Shown: positions 12,355 to 42,546 of the stretch, in pieces
How the letters are laid out: each line of letters opens with the position of its first letter
How positions within the stretch are numbered: the first letter of the stretch is position 1
Source of the DNA: Harriotta raleighana
Lineage: Eukaryota
Direction: 5' to 3'
Length of the DNA: 64,000 nucleotides
NCBI GenBank assembly: GCA_050575255.1
Contig: JBNZDD010013730.1
Coordinates: 9,456,381-9,520,380, forward strand
The notes under the pieces: generated by a model
What the model was told of the DNA's origin: nothing
The model's input: the letters and a program-made list of their open reading frames with translations, nothing else
Databases searched by the model: none
Made by a program: the position numbers and the translations under genes

Positions 12355-12418
12355 CTGTATTTGCACCCAATAGCACAGTGGCAAGAGCCAAGTATTTCAG
12401 GCAGAAAAACTTGCCCAT
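12355..12418 (-). CDS. PTPRC: PTPRC/CD45 first coding exon (signal peptide), MGKFFCLKYLALATVLLGANT + phase-1 intron
   Basis: Minus strand reads aaagaATGGGCAAG...GCAAATACAG|GTAAAG: strong Kozak context, 21 codons + 1 nt, GT donor at 12354. The hydrophobic peptide resembles the CD45 leader (human MYLWLKLLAFGFAFLDT), which is also followed by a phase-1 long intron. It lies divergent from ATP6V1G3, as in mammals. No further coding exons were identified in the window. Confidence 0.88.
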
Positions 12419-12470
12419 TCTTTCTAACTCTGGCGATGATCGGGAGTGGTTGGATGAAACACCATGCGTC
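12419..12470 (-). other. PTPRC: 5'UTR part of PTPRC exon 2, with splice acceptor
   Basis: Minus strand: T-rich tract (tatttttttttgacag) then GACGCATGGTGTTTC...; the acceptor CAG is at 12471-12473. Confidence 0.8.
12424..12465 (-). CDS. Upstream ORF in PTPRC 5'UTR, MVFHPTTPDHRQS*
   Basis: ATG GTG TTT CAT CCA ACC ACT CCC GAT CAT CGC CAG AGT TAG, then AAAGA, then the main ATG. Out of frame with the CDS. Translation is not shown. Confidence 0.55.
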   Translation of the reverse strand: MVFHPTTPDHRQS

Positions 12471-12674
12471 CTGTCAAAAAAAAATACAACTATTATTTTT
12501 TTGTGTGTGTGGAGGGGGGGGGTGGGGGTGGTTGGGTTGGGTGATGGGGAGGGAGGGAGGGAGGGGGGAATGAAAGGAAATAAATAAGTGTTTTTTTTCT
12601 CTCTCTCTTTCTTTTCCCCTCCCTCTCTCTATCTCTGAACCCCAAGAAAAGTTTGTGATAAAAATGGACCGTAC

Positions 12675-12860
12675 TTTGTTTGTGTGCAGCTTGCTGTTCG
12701 GTTGGGCGTGCAATCTCCTGTGTTAAGAGTTTACTCCAATTTTAACCACTCAGCTATGGTCATGCTCCAAACTGAGTGATGCAAGTTGAAAACTTGTCTC
12801 CTTCTCGTCTCTCTCTCTCTCTATAGGTTGCCTTCTCTGTCTCCAGGAAGTTACTAGCCT
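12675..12860 (-). other. PTPRC: Probable non-coding exon 1 of PTPRC (5' boundary unknown)
   Basis: Candidate donor CAAA|GTACGG at 12675/12674, about 200 nt upstream of the exon-2 acceptor. Mammalian PTPRC has short non-coding first exons close to exon 2. Confidence 0.5.
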
Positions 12861-13210: not shown

Positions 13211-13299
13211 AAGTGAATGGTGTCAATTCCTGTCAAAAACTGGACATATTTTTACTCTACTTTGTCGTGCAGTCCCAAATGTGATAGGTTTTTAGTGTG

Positions 13300-14190
13300 G
13301 GACAGGACAGGACACAAGCTGCAGAATTCCGGATGATCTTGTGGCGGGATGGATTGGGATGGCCGACAAGCAGGGAGTTGGCGCAGTGGACCCTACATCC
13401 ATGGATGAAGGTTTCAGTGGCTTGAGGGAAGAGACTTGGATGATGGGTTCGTAGAGGGAGTAGCAGGAGAGGGGGGAACGAAATTGGGAAACAATCGCTT
13501 ATTCCAGGACCTTGTAAAAGAAAAGAAGGTTGGAGATGGGGCGGTAATTGGAGACCAGGGATGAGTCAAGGGAAGAATTTTGTAGAACGGGGGTGATGAT
13601 GGCTGTTTTTCTTTCCCTGCCTTGGCACGTCGAGAAAGTGCGCCAAGAGGGTTCGGATCAGGAGTCGTGGAGGGAAAGGTTGGGGGAAGTAGGTGTAGTT
13701 TCATACATGTACGCCATTTAAACATGGTAATGTTACTGTGTCTGGAATGTGCACTCTGTCCCTGGAGAGATGCATCCATCCTGCTAATTCCGGAGAATAC
13801 TGAGGGCAAGTTGGCAAGAGCCATGGGGAAAAAGTGTCTATTGGGGAGTGGCTGAAATTTAACCAGCTGAAACCACACAGCTTGCCATTCATAGCACTGT
13901 GTGTCAAGCTTCCCAAAGCTTGTTTGGCAAGGTCCCTTATCCTAAATCTCCATGGACCTCCCTTGCCTGGTTCGACTCCTACCTTTCTCACCATCTCCCT
14001 TTTTTGTCGCCACCAGTGGCTACTCTTCCAGCCCCCACACTGTCACCTGTGGCATTCCTCAGGGATCTGCCCTTGGGCCCCTATCCATGGGCATGGGGTC
14101 AACTTTCACATGTATGCGGATGACACCCACTCTTGACTTTCTGCCTTCCCCCTCGATTCCAGGACCAAGTTTCCTTACTCCGCATGCCTC
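13300..14190. mobile_element. Two L2 ORF2 fragments in opposite orientation (minus ~13300-13690, plus ~13880-14190)
   Basis: The minus piece encodes SNYRPISNL...KVLE; the plus piece encodes LAWFDSYLS, VTCGIPQGSALGP and HGVNFHMYADDT. Confidence 0.8.
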
Positions 14191-29576: not shown

Positions 29577-29658
29577 ATGGCCAGCCAGTCCCTAGGAATC
29601 CATCAGCTTCTCCAAGCAGAGAAACGTGCTAAAGAGAGGTTAGAGGAAGCTAAAAAAA
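29577..29658 (+). CDS. ATP6V1G3: ATP6V1G3 coding exon 1 (MASQSLGIHQLLQAEKRAKERLEEAKK)
   Basis: gacATGG Kozak context; classic V-ATPase G N-terminus with G3-type GIHQLLQAEKRAK; 82 nt; donor A|GTAAGT. Confidence 0.97.
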
Positions 29659-32481
29659 GTAAGTAGCCAGATTCGTGAACCTTACTCTCTCTTCCCCCCT
29701 TCCCACATCCTTATCCCCAGTCAACTCTCAGTCTGACACTGATTTCTGGTTTCGATACAACTGTGTTTTGTGGATGAGTTTATACGATGAGTTAAGAGAG
29801 ACGATTTTATTCCAGTAATGACTATGATGGGGACAAGGTGCAGGAGAAATCCAAATTTAAAAAAAAATTGACGCTTTGGTGGACTTGTTTCATCTCTTTT
29901 ATTGTTGGATGTGGAGTGATCTAGGCTGACCCCAGACTATAGTATTACTGTATTGGGCATAAGGCCAACCCGGGACTTCTTAATGTCGTTCAGTAGAAGT
30001 GCATTCATGGCAAGTGAATGGAAGTCAGTCGTTTGAGAATGGAGTGGGAATGACTGTGTGACAGACACAGCAGATCCAACGACCCTGTAGTTTCCATATC
30101 AAGAAAACGTCCAAACTAGGTATGGTGAATTGTGTGGAGGCTGAGGAGAGATGGGGGGCTGAGGAGAGAAGGGGCGGGGGGGGGCACTTAGGTTGTTTCT
30201 TCCTTGTTCCTGTCTAATTGGCTTAACTGGCTTATTAGATCCAGTTACTCCCCCCCCACCCTCAACCCCTCACATCTGCTTCCACACCACACCACTGGGG
30301 AGAACAGATTAGACTGCAACTGAATGGGAACAAAGGGATGCAGATTCTTTGACAGATGTACTATCGGAATTTATACATTTTGCCTCTGTTAATTCCATGT
30401 TTTGATAGTTTTTTTACACAGCAAGTGATTGTCAACACAGGAGGAACATTCATTCCTTCTGAAGGCAATTTTTTTTTAAAAAATGCCAAGAAATATAACT
30501 TCAAGCGACTTCTGTCGGCTGAAACGCATTATGAGAAAGCCTCGTCAGTAGGGTGCAAAGAGCAAAATGAAGTCTTATCTCCAATACAACTTCCATACAG
30601 CAACATTAGATAGTCAGAACTCAAGTCATGTCACTCTAATCTGAATCACTGCAATAAAACACTTGTTATTGTATTCATGACGAAGCTGCCCCTCACAAGC
30701 AGGACCATCTTGTGGTTGGCAGGTATCTGCACACATCCATCTCATTCACAGCCTCCTGTGATGCCAGGTACAGAGAAGAGCTATCCTTATCCCGAGTCCC
30801 GAATGTAGGCAGATCCGATGGGTGGATTGAAGGGTGGGGGGGCGAAGACTTGCACAGAGTGGAATTTGATCTTGTAATCACCTATGAAATGAATTTCAAT
30901 TAAAACAGTAAATGTTGATGGAAAAGACAATAAGAAAAACTAAGGGAAAAAAATCAAACAAACCTAAAAGTTTGTCCTTAAGTATACAGTATCCCCATTG
31001 GTTTGGTGACAGTGCAGTTAAGATGCATATTGGGGTTGAGAAAGGGATGGGCAGTGGATTCTGAATGTAAATGTGGCTATTTTGAATAGATAATAAATCG
31101 GCGGCCTTGGTTGATCTAGACGATATGTAATCTATATGTAGAATTTTTTTTTACAAAGAAAAATCTTGGGAGGTGGTGTATATTGAAGAGAGCTGTTTCC
31201 CTGTCCTCTGGGGATTGATTCGGGGGCCAAAACAATGAAATTCCAGTTAGGATTCATGGACATCTGAATTCCAATGTGTAAAGCCGAATAATTCTGCCTG
31301 CGAAAGAGAGGAATATTACAAAGCTGTAATAATTCATTGAGAGTGAGATCCAGTGGGTTTGTACATGAAAGAACAAAAAACAAACGGATAGTGTTCAGAT
31401 TTCAAAAGAGTTATCATCAAAAACAAATTAATTGTGTATTGTTTTCTAGGGGAAGAATCCCAAATGCAGAGTTTGATGGTTCCTGAATTGTTACTTGAAA
31501 TAGATTTTCTCCATTAACAACTGTAACTTTGCAAATGTACAGCAAACATTGTTCTCTTATGCCAGAGAGATCATGCTTAAAACAGGATTTCTGCAAAAGT
31601 TGCCCACGAGTCGAGGCTTGCATTTACACCTTAGAAATGCATGGGTTTAAGTTTTGCGATTGCAATATTTGCTGTTAGTCAAATTAAATATTTAGGCAGC
31701 ATAGAATTGATAGCGAGAAGCCAGAGGCGTTGCATTATCTTGTATGCACTTCTGGTCGCTGAGTTCCAGCCTATGAATGATCTGGAGAAGTGAAACTCGT
31801 AACTTGGAATAATTGGTTAACTGCATTGAATGTGGTATCAGAATTGGTAATAATGTAGCTCTCAAAAACCTTCACTAGTTGATGGATTTCAAAACATTTC
31901 AGTTTTGTTCTTTACACCATCTCTCAGTGGTCACCTGAGGAGAGTGTATCATAGGAATCCATTAGTGTTGCTATGGGGTTCCCCCACCCAGCACAGCCCC
32001 AAATTTAATAGCCTACAATTAAACATGTAATGATTGGTTTCAGAAGTGTTTGTGAGTAAGCAGGTACCACTGTTACAACACTGCAGTGATCACATCAGAA
32101 AGAAGACACCAAGTCATATCATCAGAGTTCACACTAGATTACTCCACCTCAGACAAACAGTGAGGACCCTGGAAGCAAGCAACGCCTTTTATAATTAGGT
32201 GTTGCATTTTGAAACCTAGTGGAAATCGTACAGCCAAAAAAAACAGATAGGGTGAAAGCAGAATCTATGAAGGAAATCAATACCATGAAAAAGAAATCAT
32301 TCTAGACATTGGGCGACATAACTCACAGGAGCCTTATTATTCAGTACAGCATCGCTCGATGGTTTAGTTTTTTTTATATATAATCCATTGATCCCCATTG
32401 TGCATCTACTATTCATTAGATTTGTGGCATATTTGGTGTCAAACAGTTACGTGGAATGTGCTTTGTGAATGCTGCTTTTAG

Positions 32482-32582
32482 GGAAAGGAAGACGGCTCAA
32501 ACAAGCAAAGGATGAGGCTCAAGCTGAGATAGATCAATATCGTCTGCAAAGAGAGAGCGAGTTTAGACAGAAGCAAACCTCG
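32482..32582 (+). CDS. ATP6V1G3: ATP6V1G3 coding exon 2 (RKGRRLKQAKDEAQAEIDQYRLQRESEFRQKQTS)
   Basis: Acceptor ttttag|GG, donor TCG|GTGCGT, 101 nt, in frame with exons 1 and 3. Confidence 0.97.
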
Positions 32583-33113
32583 GTGCGTATTAATGCAAAA
32601 AAAAGAACTCCATAGCATGTTTTCAAAATGGATTTTTTAAAGTTTAAAAAGTAATGCTTCCACTCTGCTCCCAATGTCTAACTAAATATTGTATGTTTCT
32701 TGGGGGCACAAAAGGAGTTATTTAATGAGTCACATGTGATATTAAAAAATATTTATATTTTACATTTTGAGATCACAAAGGTAGATGTCTATACAGAAAT
32801 AAGACACACAAAAGGTTTTACGAAGACTATATCACACACACACATGTTGCTCCCCAAATGGGTAAATGCATTATATGGCTATGGTACTCAGCCACAGTGA
32901 CCTGGACAGTTCAAATTTTGATCATTCTACAGTTCTTTGTTATTTTTATGTATATATATATATATATATATATTTGGCAGTCCAATCCTCATCCTAATAG
33001 GTATCGATCACCAGCAAAATACTATACTTCAATTTGGTAATGCAGTGCAAGAGAGCTCAGGTGCAAGAGAGCTCAACTTTAAAGTAGAAAGTTTCATCAC
33101 AAGTGTTCCAAAT

Positions 33114-33433
33114 GGACTCCTGTGGCTCAGTGATTAGAGCAGTCGCTTTACAAGCGAGAGACCTGGGTTCAATTCCAGTCAGGTCAGTTTCCTTGGGCAA
33201 GTTTCCTTACTCCACAAGCCTCATAATAATCCCTTAAGTGTTAAAAACAATAATAAATTGGACATTTCAATCCATGACTCTTTGTGGGACACTGCTGTGT
33301 GCAATTGGCTGCTGCATTTCGCCCACAAATATACAGTCAACTCACTTTACAGTATATTCTGTGAAGCTCTTTGAGACATCTAGAAGATGTGAAAAGTGCT
33401 ATATCAAATGCAAGGAATATCATTATTATTATT
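33114..33433 (+). mobile_element. Full-length SINE in ATP6V1G3 intron 2
   Basis: GGACTCCTGTGGCTCAGTGATTAGAGC head through aaatgcaagg...(att)n tail. Confidence 0.92.
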
Positions 33434-33787
33434 TGTAGGACAATTTGAGCCAAGAGATAGTAGGGTTCCTGTTCATCTCTTGGCTGGGAGAGAGGAAGAA
33501 AAACAAATAGCCTTAGTTCTCTTTCCTAATAACTACCTGTACAATCCATTCACACAAGTTCTGCTGTGTTGGTCCTATTGTTAAAAAGACTACTAACACT
33601 TGGGATCATAGAGGGCTGGTGGCTTTGGAAAGTAATTCTTTCACAAAACATTGATATCCAGCTTGTATTTAGTGTAAACATCATATCACAGTTTCTAATA
33701 TGTTCAAATAAGCACACGGCTTGTTTACATGGTATGTGCTTCCATTTATAGTAAACATGGCTCTTTCTCTCTCTCTCTCCGACCCAG

Positions 33788-33967
33788 ATCATGGGATCTC
33801 AAGGTAACCTTTCAGTCCGAGTGGATGAGCAAACTCAAGCAAAAATCAACGGGCTTGAAAGAGATCATCAGCAGAACAGGGAAAAGGTTTTGTACCAACT
33901 CTTGGGGCTGGTGTGTGAAATCAAGCCAGAGATCCATATCAATTTCAGAATTGGTGGCTCACATTAA
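33788..33967 (+). CDS. ATP6V1G3: ATP6V1G3 coding exon 3 (IMGSQGNLSVRVDEQTQAKINGLERDHQQNREKVLYQLLGLVCEIKPEIHINFRIGGSH*)
   Basis: (CT)n polypyrimidine tract and cccag acceptor; 180 nt ending in TAA; total CDS 363 nt = 120 aa. IMGSQ and VCxxKPEIHxN match G3. Confidence 0.97.
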   Translation: MMGSQGNLSVRVDEQTQAKINGLERDHQQNREKVLYQLLGLVCEIKPEIHINFRIGGSH

Positions 33968-40475: not shown

Positions 40476-41485
40476 TCTTTCCACCAGCTACTGTAGTCAA
40501 GGTGTTTTTTTCTAACTGCCTGTGCCTAAGATAGATCAAATCTAAGTTACACACTGTGCTACCACCTCCATCCCACTCGTCCACAGCTCTCTATGTGCCA
40601 ATTCCTGTGAAATTGGGGGGTTTAAACCTGCTGTGGAGCTCTTGTCTCTGGGGGGGTTGTGGCAGTGAGCTGCAAAGCTCCTCTGAAAATAAAAACAATT
40701 GACTGAGAATTTCCCTTTCCTCGTCTTGATATGGTAGTCGTTTTGTGTGACTTGAACTCCCTGGGATGGTGTCACTCAACACTAAAGCGACCTACCCACC
40801 CACCCACGTTAATGCATGCAGAGAGCACAGAGATTGAACGAACACCTAGTGCCCACCTACACAAAGCTCCTGTATAAAATCCTTGCCATGAGAGACCTGT
40901 CTAACATCATGGCTTCTCAATTTCCCTTATTGATAAGCTTCTAGGCATCCTCCACTTAATCCTGTGCTTTAAGAGTGTGATTGGCATCAATGTAATTTGA
41001 GTTTGGGGGAACAATTCCCTTTTCTATATTATTATGCATCTACACCTCCCATCCTCCTGATTTCTATTCCCCTCCCACTATCAACTCTTCATGTGTTTTG
41101 ACTTCCTGTCCCTAGTGAGATTTCCACACTCTAGCTTTCCTTCTCCAACTCCCTCCCCCCCCCATCTCTCCATTTCTCTGGTGTTCTTTCTTCCTTTCCC
41201 CAGTGATATAATACTCCTGTAATGAACCCACAAGTTGTAATTTCAAACTGAGTAAAACCGAGAAAGAGATCAAATTGCTGGGACGCCTCTTGTGTTGGTA
41301 AAGTTACTCCCCCAACTTGACTCAAATTCAATTAGAGAAAAGAGTTTCTTTCCAGCAAAGGAAAAAAATCTGGTGTAAATCAAACTTTTATTAAATTAAA
41401 CCCATATTTGTTAACAATTTCCTTTTCCAAATATGATAGTAATAACAATAAAGACTGAGATAATAAAATCACCAGTAAAAAAAAA

Positions 41486-41757
41486 CAGCTCTTCAGGGGA
41501 GTGGAGTAGTGTGGAAATGAACTGGACATGGTGGGATATAANACAGCTCTTCAGGGGAGTGGTGTGGAAATGAACTGGACATGGTGGGATATAATTTACA
41601 AAGGCACAAGAGGGAAACAAAAAAGGCATTCTTTTTGTATGAAAAGANCAGCTCTTCAGGGGAGTGGAGTAGTGTGGAAATGAACTGGACATGGTGGGAT
41701 ATAATTTACAAAGGCACAAGAGGGAAACAAAAAAGGCATTCTTTTTGTATGAAAAGA
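41486..41757. repeat. Three N-separated tandem copies (probable assembly artefact of a heterozygous 5-bp indel)
   Basis: cagctcttcaggggagtgg[agtag]tgtggaaatgaactggacatggtgggatataa occurs three times, separated by single n at 41542 and 41648; copy 2 lacks agtag. Confidence 0.85.
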
Positions 41758-42021
41758 AGAAATCTCCACAATTGTCAAAAGATACACATGATTGGGCGGA
41801 GAATTACTATAGTAGTAAACCATTTTATTCAACATAAGAAGGTTTTGAATAACAACACCTACAAGATTTGCACATTATCTGTGGCAGGGGTATTCTGTGG
41901 TTTTATTCCTGAACACAGGTTTTGTTTTGCATTGAGCAGTCAATCCCGAGTTTACCATCTCAGTGTTCGCATAAAGCCAAGTGGCCTTTCCCCTGCAATC
42001 GCACCACAGTCAGAGGCAACG

Positions 42022-42546
42022 AGGTTGCATTTGACACATCACCTCATCATGTCTTTGAGATGTCTCAAAGCGCTTCACAGAATGTACAGTAAAGTGAATT
42101 GACTGTTTATTTTGTGGGTGATACGTGGCAGCCAATTGCACTCAGCTGTGTCCCACAAATACTGCAGCATAGCTTCACAGGATGTACTGTAAAGTGTGGT
42201 GACTGTATATTTTGCCGGCAAATGCCTGGATGGATGAATGATAAGTGCTCCGAGATGCCATCTTGTGTGAAGAGCACTATATAAATGCAAGTTGTTTTTG
42301 ATCAAAATCATTCTTTCGCACAGTGATGGATTGATTGCCCCAAACTGTTATTATTTTATTTATTTTTAAGGGATTATTACCCCCAGAAAAGCGTTTTTTT
42401 CAATCTTCTAACAACCGGGTGCCTATTAACTGTTAGGTAAACAGAGGGGTGTGGAGTGAGGAAACTTGCCCAACATTTTGCCCTGCCTAGGAATCAAACC
42501 AGGTTTCTCAATTGTGTGGCGAGTGCTCCAACCAATGAGCTACAGA
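42022..42546 (-). mobile_element. SINE copy, long-CORE variant, with an internal insertion (~42160-42320)
   Basis: Tail ttgcatttgacacatc..., head ...gagtgctccaaccaatgagctacag, and an extra segment at ~42380-42448. Confidence 0.82.

What the first reader, a model, noticed from the sequence alone, without database searches (positions are those of the whole stretch)
12419..12470. Upstream ORF ending 5 nt before the CD45 start codon, apparently conserved to human
Seen: exon 2 opens GACGCATGGTGTTTC, and this ATG starts a 13-codon ORF (MVFHPTTPDHRQS*) whose TAG lies 5 nt before the signal-peptide ATG. Recalled, not verified: the human PTPRC 5'UTR reads GACGCATGCTGTTTC...CAGATATGACCATGTAT, giving a 12-codon uORF (MLFLRDTADFQI*) that also stops at the main start, with M-[LV]-F, T7 and D9 shared. 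Inference: a uORF with the same start context, similar length and same stop position across jawed vertebrates would point to an old translational control of CD45 dosage (leaky scanning or reinitiation). I do not know it as a characterised element.
Basis: partly seen in the sequence, partly recalled or inferred. Interest (0 to 1): 0.7.

Follow-up and report, generated by a model that had tools for sequence, protein, structure and literature searches.

The report
Ancient two-uORF leader of CD45
The CD45 immune-receptor gene of a chimaera-like fish has a short upstream reading frame just before its start codon and a second one in the predicted first exon, laid out much as in human CD45, so the pair is likely an old, mild brake on how much CD45 protein is made, untested in any species.

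Summary
Confirmed, on the minus strand: ATG 12465 opens 13 codons whose TAG ends 5 nt before the CD45 start (12418). The gene is PTPRC of a holocephalan-like fish. A published table lists a human 12-codon uORF in the same frame, its stop overlapping the first in-frame AUG; such a layout arises in 0.7-1.4% of controls. But the stops are not the same codon, spacing is 47 versus 35 nt, the recalled human letters could not be checked, and a manual Ribo-seq annotation does not list this uORF. It lists the human 10-codon uORF upstream. The window has an unreported counterpart: a 10-codon ATG frame at 12763-12731 in the predicted exon 1, with all three frame relations matching human if the donor is 12675. 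Best reading: a two-uORF leader kept since early jawed vertebrates that mildly damps CD45 translation by leaky scanning and poor reinitiation. Only two species were compared, the splice is predicted, and promoter or splicing constraint remains a live rival.

The parts
12424..12465 (-). uORF2 (the finding): 13 codons + TAG, out of frame with the CDS, weak-to-moderate start context (C at -3, G at +4), ends 5 nt before the main ATG
   Evidence: sequence
12355..12470 (-). predicted PTPRC exon 2: 116 nt, 52 nt leader + 64 nt coding, donor CAG|GTAAAG
   Evidence: predicted, no RNA
12355..12418 (-). CD45 start codon (A at -3, G at +4) and signal peptide
   Evidence: aligns from residue 1 with C. milii and catshark PTPRC; 52-71% identity to three chondrichthyan N-termini
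12731..12763 (-). uORF1 (found here): 10 codons MTIAEWLKLE + TAA, 33 nt, A at -3 and A at +4; same length as the human uORF with Ribo-seq initiation evidence
   Evidence: human. Homology inferred from length, spacing and frame only
12471..12674 (-). predicted intron 1, 204 nt, donor AAA|GTACGG at 12675/12674; purine-rich then pyrimidine-rich low-complexity tracts
   Evidence: only 1 of 34 GT sites in 13300-12475 that passes a rule drawn from this gene's own donors, but weak by a small weight matrix (75th percentile)
12675..12860 (-). predicted untranslated exon 1 / promoter-proximal region (5' end not determined); single copy; ATG-poor
   Evidence: 2 ATGs in the 530 nt before exon 2, matched by 1 of 635 stretches of the minus strand (low complexity contributes)
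12844..12851 (-). ETS-type motif ACTTCCTG, 88 nt upstream of uATG1 (label recalled, not tested)
   Evidence: sequence

Best explanation
The 13-codon frame is the second of two short upstream reading frames in the CD45 leader, a layout likely inherited from the ancestor of jawed vertebrates and predicted to damp CD45 translation mildly. Shown: both ATG frames, their contexts, the gene's identity, and human uORFs of 10 and 12 codons with the same frame relations. Inferred from the scanning model: uORF1 (A at -3) takes a share of scanning ribosomes and, being short, lets many resume scanning (61 nt to uATG2, 108 nt to the main ATG; human 52 nt to uAUG2). uORF2 (C at -3) catches a smaller share, and these terminate too close to the CD45 start (5 nt here, overlapping it in human) to reinitiate well. 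Most ribosomes leak through to the strong main ATG. The peptides are probably irrelevant; what would be selected is the start codons and frames.
For: Gene identity: two downstream exons have human CD45 (PDB 1YGR) as sole significant hit; best homologue C. milii PTPRC, 95%; C. milii CD45 maps exon by exon from 12418 over about 73 kb. Human leader: uAUGs at nt 55 (10 codons), 140 (12 codons), 175 (in frame), start 181 (PMC2490741 suppl. table 1). Spacings fish/human 94/85, 141/120, 47/35 nt; all three agree modulo 3 (only two are independent). Controls: uORF2 layout 0.7-1.4%; uORF1 match 0.66% (exactly 10 codons) to 2.1% (9-11 codons) of 20,000 shuffles with donor 12675; without any donor assumption, about 7% (2 ATGs, 3.8% of ATG frames are 10 codons). 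Human 33-nt ATG uORF annotated from initiating-ribosome peaks (PMC9943669 suppl. S1); equating it with the nt-55 uORF rests on equal length and accession. uAUGs in general are more conserved than other 5'UTR triplets (PMC7889888 section 11).
Against: The human 12-codon uORF is absent from that annotation: 1 of 1 PTPRC rows in the 775,130 characters held is the 10-codon one; their criteria need a distinct peak and a Kozak match, so a weak start could be missed. PTPRC is among the 12 most translated genes in human T cells at 30 and 240 min, so any brake is mild. The stops of uORF2 are not the same codon. Exon 1 and its donor are predicted; the donor rule was drawn after the fact, passes 18 of 22 training donors and 19% of all GTs, and three other GTs (12948, 12855, 12488) plus two further upstream scored higher in the weight matrix. 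With donor 12735 the same ATG would give an N-terminal extension instead. No human or third-species nucleotide sequence was obtained, so homology rests on lengths and spacings. Tolerances in the controls were my choice after seeing the data.
Confidence: 0.5

Rival explanations
1. The ATGs are passengers in DNA or RNA motifs kept for transcription or splicing. uATG2 lies 5 nt from the acceptor, both uATGs sit in a GCATG pentamer (RBFOX core, recalled), and uORF1 lies in promoter-proximal sequence with ETS- and RUNX-like motifs. Translation of the frames would be incidental.
For: Position beside the acceptor; both contexts read GCATG; the uORF2 stop is not conserved in place; no initiation call for uORF2 in human. 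Several CD45 promoters around exon 1, intron 1 and exon 2 are recalled from older papers that were not held.
Against: Does not explain the equal 10-codon length and kept frames, nor the human initiation peak at uORF1. The RUNX-like motif is no more frequent than chance (13 vs 12.5 expected).
Confidence: 0.25
2. Chance resemblance: uORFs are common and turn over, and the two species arrived at similar layouts independently.
For: ATG in 61-67% of control 52-mers; most human receptor PTP leaders in the same table carry uORFs; spacings differ by 9 and 12 nt; the finding was picked from a scan of many genes.
Against: Two separate matches at about 1% and 1-7%; the second was tested only after the first was flagged.
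Confidence: 0.15
3. An ATF4-like delayed-reinitiation switch: when ternary complex is scarce, ribosomes leaving uORF1 bypass uATG2 and start at CD45, keeping CD45 synthesis up in resting or stressed lymphocytes.
For: Order short uORF, spacer, out-of-frame uORF abutting the start; PTPRC is among the top translated mRNAs at 30 min, before the shift of ribosome density from leaders to CDSs that the preprint describes between 30 and 60 min (passages).
Against: uATG2 context is weak and it has no initiation call; only 47 nt (35 in human) separate uATG2 from the start, a narrow window; PTPRC stays in the top 12 after activation too.
Confidence: 0.1

Closest known systems
Human PTPRC 5' leader uORFs as catalogued (PMC2490741 suppl. 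table 1; PMC9943669 suppl. S1)
   Same: Two uORFs, 10 and 12-13 codons; first in the CDS frame, second in the same shifted frame; second ends at the start codon.
   Different: Spacings 94/47 nt vs 85/35 nt; stop 5 nt upstream vs overlapping the first AUG; the fish has one Met where mammals and caecilians have MTM. Both sources only list the human frames; I saw no functional test or cross-species comparison.
C/EBP-alpha and C/EBP-beta uORF (recalled; the paper was not held)
   Same: Short, out-of-frame, vertebrate-conserved uORF ending a few nt before the main AUG, hindering reinitiation there.
   Different: In C/EBP, reinitiation further downstream makes truncated isoforms; for CD45 it would lose the signal peptide and no such isoform was looked for or is known to me.
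ATF4 multi-uORF delayed reinitiation (passage in bioRxiv 2025.07.31.667903; details recalled)
   Same: A short 5' uORF followed by an out-of-frame uORF at the CDS start.
   Different: ATF4's last uORF overlaps the CDS extensively and ATF4 is poorly translated at rest; CD45 is highly translated and uORF2 is weak and barely overlapping or non-overlapping.

Membership tests
PTPRC/CD45 gene | Membrane-proximal wedge and D2 acidic insert match CD45 | tested here: met
   1YGR sole significant hit, E 5e-6 and 2e-7
PTPRC/CD45 gene | ATG 12418 is the orthologous signal-peptide start | tested here: met
   aligned from residue 1 (E 0.013-0.26 for this short exon), collinear with the rest of the gene
Position-conserved regulatory uORF | uATG in the mature mRNA leader | tested here: inconclusive
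   splice sites predicted only
Position-conserved regulatory uORF | Same frame and similar position in a distant species | tested here: met
   human table; two species only; uORF1 part depends on donor 12675
Position-conserved regulatory uORF | uATG kept across lineages above neighbouring triplets | not testable with these tools
   no vertebrate genome besides the own one is held; 0 of 119 metagenome pattern hits were PTPRC
Position-conserved regulatory uORF | Ribosome initiation at the uATG | tested here: inconclusive
   human uORF1 listed, uORF2 not; no fish data
Position-conserved regulatory uORF | Mutation of the uATG changes CDS output | not testable with these tools
   needs reporter or editing
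Conserved-peptide uORF (CPuORF) | Peptide under purifying selection | not testable with these tools
   no orthologous letters obtained; ESUCA supplement unreadable; prior is low, under 1% of uORFs (PMC7889888 passage)
ATF4-type delayed reinitiation | Inhibitory downstream uORF overlapping the CDS out of frame | tested here: not met
   ends 5 nt before the ATG here; in human only its stop overlaps the AUG
ATF4-type delayed reinitiation | Translation induced or spared under eIF2-alpha phosphorylation | not testable with these tools
   needs experiment

The most novel reading that the evidence does not exclude
CD45 carries a two-uORF translational rheostat as old as jawed-vertebrate adaptive immunity: uORF1 feeds reinitiating ribosomes past or into uORF2, so that CD45 dose per mRNA is set by first-exon choice and by ternary-complex levels, and human variants in either uATG shift T- and B-cell receptor thresholds.
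Probability: 0.15. Interest if true: 0.75.

Novelty: new member of a known kind. Interest (0 to 1): 0.45.

Why it matters
CD45 dose sets antigen-receptor signalling thresholds (established knowledge), and its control is usually discussed as transcription and exon A/B/C splicing. A leader layout shared by a chimaera-like fish and human would add a translational layer that can be tested by editing two codons in a T-cell line. The kind of element is well known, so the gain is gene-specific.

Tried and rejected
No RNA holder listed for the region, so splicing and expression could not be read. Pattern scan of metagenome contigs for host-derived orthologues: 0 of 119 loci had a CD45-like context. 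Protein search with the open CDS frame plus leader: 0 of 7 candidates. Gene models that read through the leader: of 209 proteins held, 137 showed the signal-peptide motif and none had more than 5 residues before it. Pfam CD45 family PF12567: no match in the genome, controls silent. RNA structure of exon 2: not above shuffles, z -0.54. Rfam: 34 matches at E<=1, all under gathering score and all in low-complexity tracts, none on the uORFs. An alternative acceptor that would skip uATG2 (12429) scores poorly (74th percentile). Supplements unreadable: PMC3483550, PMC7530721, PMC13010147; no PTPRC row in PMC4890304 (39, only 4,330 characters held) or PMC4770386; PMC10908861 showed 2 canonical PTPRC rows only, in a file cut when stored, so it says nothing on uORFs; PMC4940163 has no per-gene uORF list. 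Papers not held. PMC2189669, PMC2289952 and PMC2275838 gave abstracts or references only. Earlier scan notes: nothing on this element.

Full report
OBSERVATION. The feature is on the minus strand. After a T-rich tract and AG (12472-12471), the exon opens at 12470; ATG 12465 starts 13 codons (MVFHPTTPDHRQS), TAG ends at 12424, and 5 nt later ATG 12418 starts MGKFFCLKYLALATVLLGANT. That acceptor is the best of 23 AGs between 12700 and 12360. One public DNA contig matches 12340-12475 without differences, though it may be the assembly's source; contigs of two other runs cover the upstream region, including 12639-12794 with 0 differences. The stretch is single copy. No RNA holder was listed, so exon boundaries are predictions.

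GENE IDENTITY. PTP-domain exons lie on the same strand about 62-72 kb downstream. Two of them have human CD45 (1YGR) as sole significant PDB hit. The best homologue is Callorhinchus milii PTPRC at 95% over the wedge exon, sharks 81-86%, so the genome is probably holocephalan. C. milii and catshark CD45 map exon by exon, starting at 12418. V-ATPase G exons lie head to head on the plus strand; that ATP6V1G3 neighbours human PTPRC is recalled.

HUMAN COMPARISON. A published table (PMC2490741, passages and part 2 of the supplement seen) lists for NM_002838 uAUGs at nt 55 (10 codons), 140 (12 codons) and 175 (in frame), with the annotated start at 181. The 12-codon uORF therefore stops at 176-178, overlapping AUG175. 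Its frame relative to the CDS equals the fish's (35 and 47 nt, both 2 modulo 3). A uORF in that frame, 10-14 codons long and stopping within -4..+6 nt of the start, appears in 0.69% of shuffles and 1.37% of random 52-mers; any ATG appears in 61-67%. These tolerances were set after seeing the data.

WHAT DOES NOT MATCH. Among 209 CD45 proteins held, 137 show the signal-peptide motif; chondrichthyan starts (MSKFS, MAKLS, MGKFA and similar) have five residues before it, like mammalian MTMYL and caecilian MTMSF/MTMDF, while 67 models, mostly birds and crocodilians, have three. The fish ATG thus aligns with the first Met of MTM. The human stop sits inside that AUG; the equivalent fish triplet is TGG and the fish TAG is three codons earlier. 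'Same stop position' holds for the layout, not for the codon. And the manual Ribo-seq annotation of OMIM genes (PMC9943669; passages, part 3 of section 3 and a supplement search seen) has one PTPRC row, a 33-nt ATG uORF at chr1:198639061-198639093. That is 10 codons plus stop, which I equate with the nt-55 uORF; the 12-codon uORF is not listed. Its criteria require a distinct initiation peak and a Kozak match, and the passages do not name the cell types, so absence is moderate evidence.

A SECOND uORF. The 530 nt before exon 2 hold only 2 ATGs, a depletion matched by 1 of 635 stretches. One, at 12763, opens exactly 10 codons plus TAA. Of 34 GT sites in 13300-12475, only 12675 passes the rule seen in this gene's donors (purine at +3, and G at -1 or +5; 18 of 22 training donors, 19% of all GTs), although a small weight matrix ranks it at the 75th percentile, below 12948, 12855 and 12488 among others. 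With that donor, uATG1 lies 94 nt before uATG2 and 141 nt before the start, against 85 and 120 in human; all frames agree. Such a match occurs in 0.66-2.1% of shuffles, or about 7% without assuming a donor (2 ATGs at 3.8% each). With donor 12735 the same ATG would run in frame into CD45 instead.

MECHANISM. Contexts: uATG1 A at -3 and A at +4; uATG2 C and G; main A and G. By the scanning model (established knowledge; applied here by inference) uORF1 takes a share of ribosomes and allows reinitiation; uORF2 takes fewer, and these end too near the start to reinitiate; most reach the strong main ATG. The effect must be mild, since PTPRC is among the 12 most translated genes of human T cells at two time points (bioRxiv 2025.07.31.667903, passages). 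No RNA structure stands out in exon 2. A peptide role is unlikely a priori (under 1% of uORFs; PMC7889888 passages and section 11). I give this reading 0.5, promoter or splicing constraint 0.25, chance 0.15, and an ATF4-like stress switch 0.1.

NOVELTY. Full-text searches for PTPRC with uORF (10 papers), CD45 with upstream open reading frame (2 papers), CD45 first exons and promoter, shark CD45 leader (0 papers) and CD45 with upstream AUG or leaky scanning (30 of 132 listed) showed, at the level of listings and the passages read, no study of these uORFs beyond the two catalogues. Older CD45 promoter papers were not held and may mention upstream AUGs; Kozak's 1991 review cites the mouse gene paper, but only its reference list was readable. 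Unreadable supplements may hold translation or conservation calls. Earlier scan notes have nothing on this element; one unchecked note describes a similar old uORF pair in shark SLC20A1, which suggests the pattern is not rare.

VERDICT. New member of a known kind; interest 0.45.

Noticed in passing
window 12535-12645 (predicted intron 1, minus strand): A purine-rich tract followed by a pyrimidine-rich tract can fold back (z -2.7 for the 204-nt intron); the plus strand has G-runs that could form a G-quadruplex. Low complexity may explain both; it also causes the sub-threshold Rfam miRNA matches.
   Followed up: partly
window 12763-12418 (minus), spliced at 12675/12470: After the uORF1 stop the CDS frame stays open for 36 codons up to the main ATG, so near-cognate starts could give N-terminal extensions; no homologue model shows one.
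   Followed up: partly
proteins P0008, P0009, P0014, P0021 and others: The MTM start of mammals and caecilians forces a TGA across Met1-Thr2 in the uORF2 frame; birds, crocodilians and a mole model start at the second Met. The extra Met-Thr may be tied to the uORF2 stop.
   Followed up: no
window 29583-33964 (+): V-ATPase G subunit exons (Pfam PF03179), head to head with PTPRC.
   Followed up: partly
L006:9622-9551 and L006:5850-5779 (minus): The same mucin-type CD45 exon match appears twice about 3.8 kb apart with equal scores: a recent exon duplication or an assembly duplicate.
   Followed up: no
window 41414-42099: Short repeated units with the window's N bases, probably an assembly join or tandem repeat.
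   Followed up: no
window 13269-13400: High-copy repeat (contig depth in the thousands) bounding the promoter region upstream.
   Followed up: no
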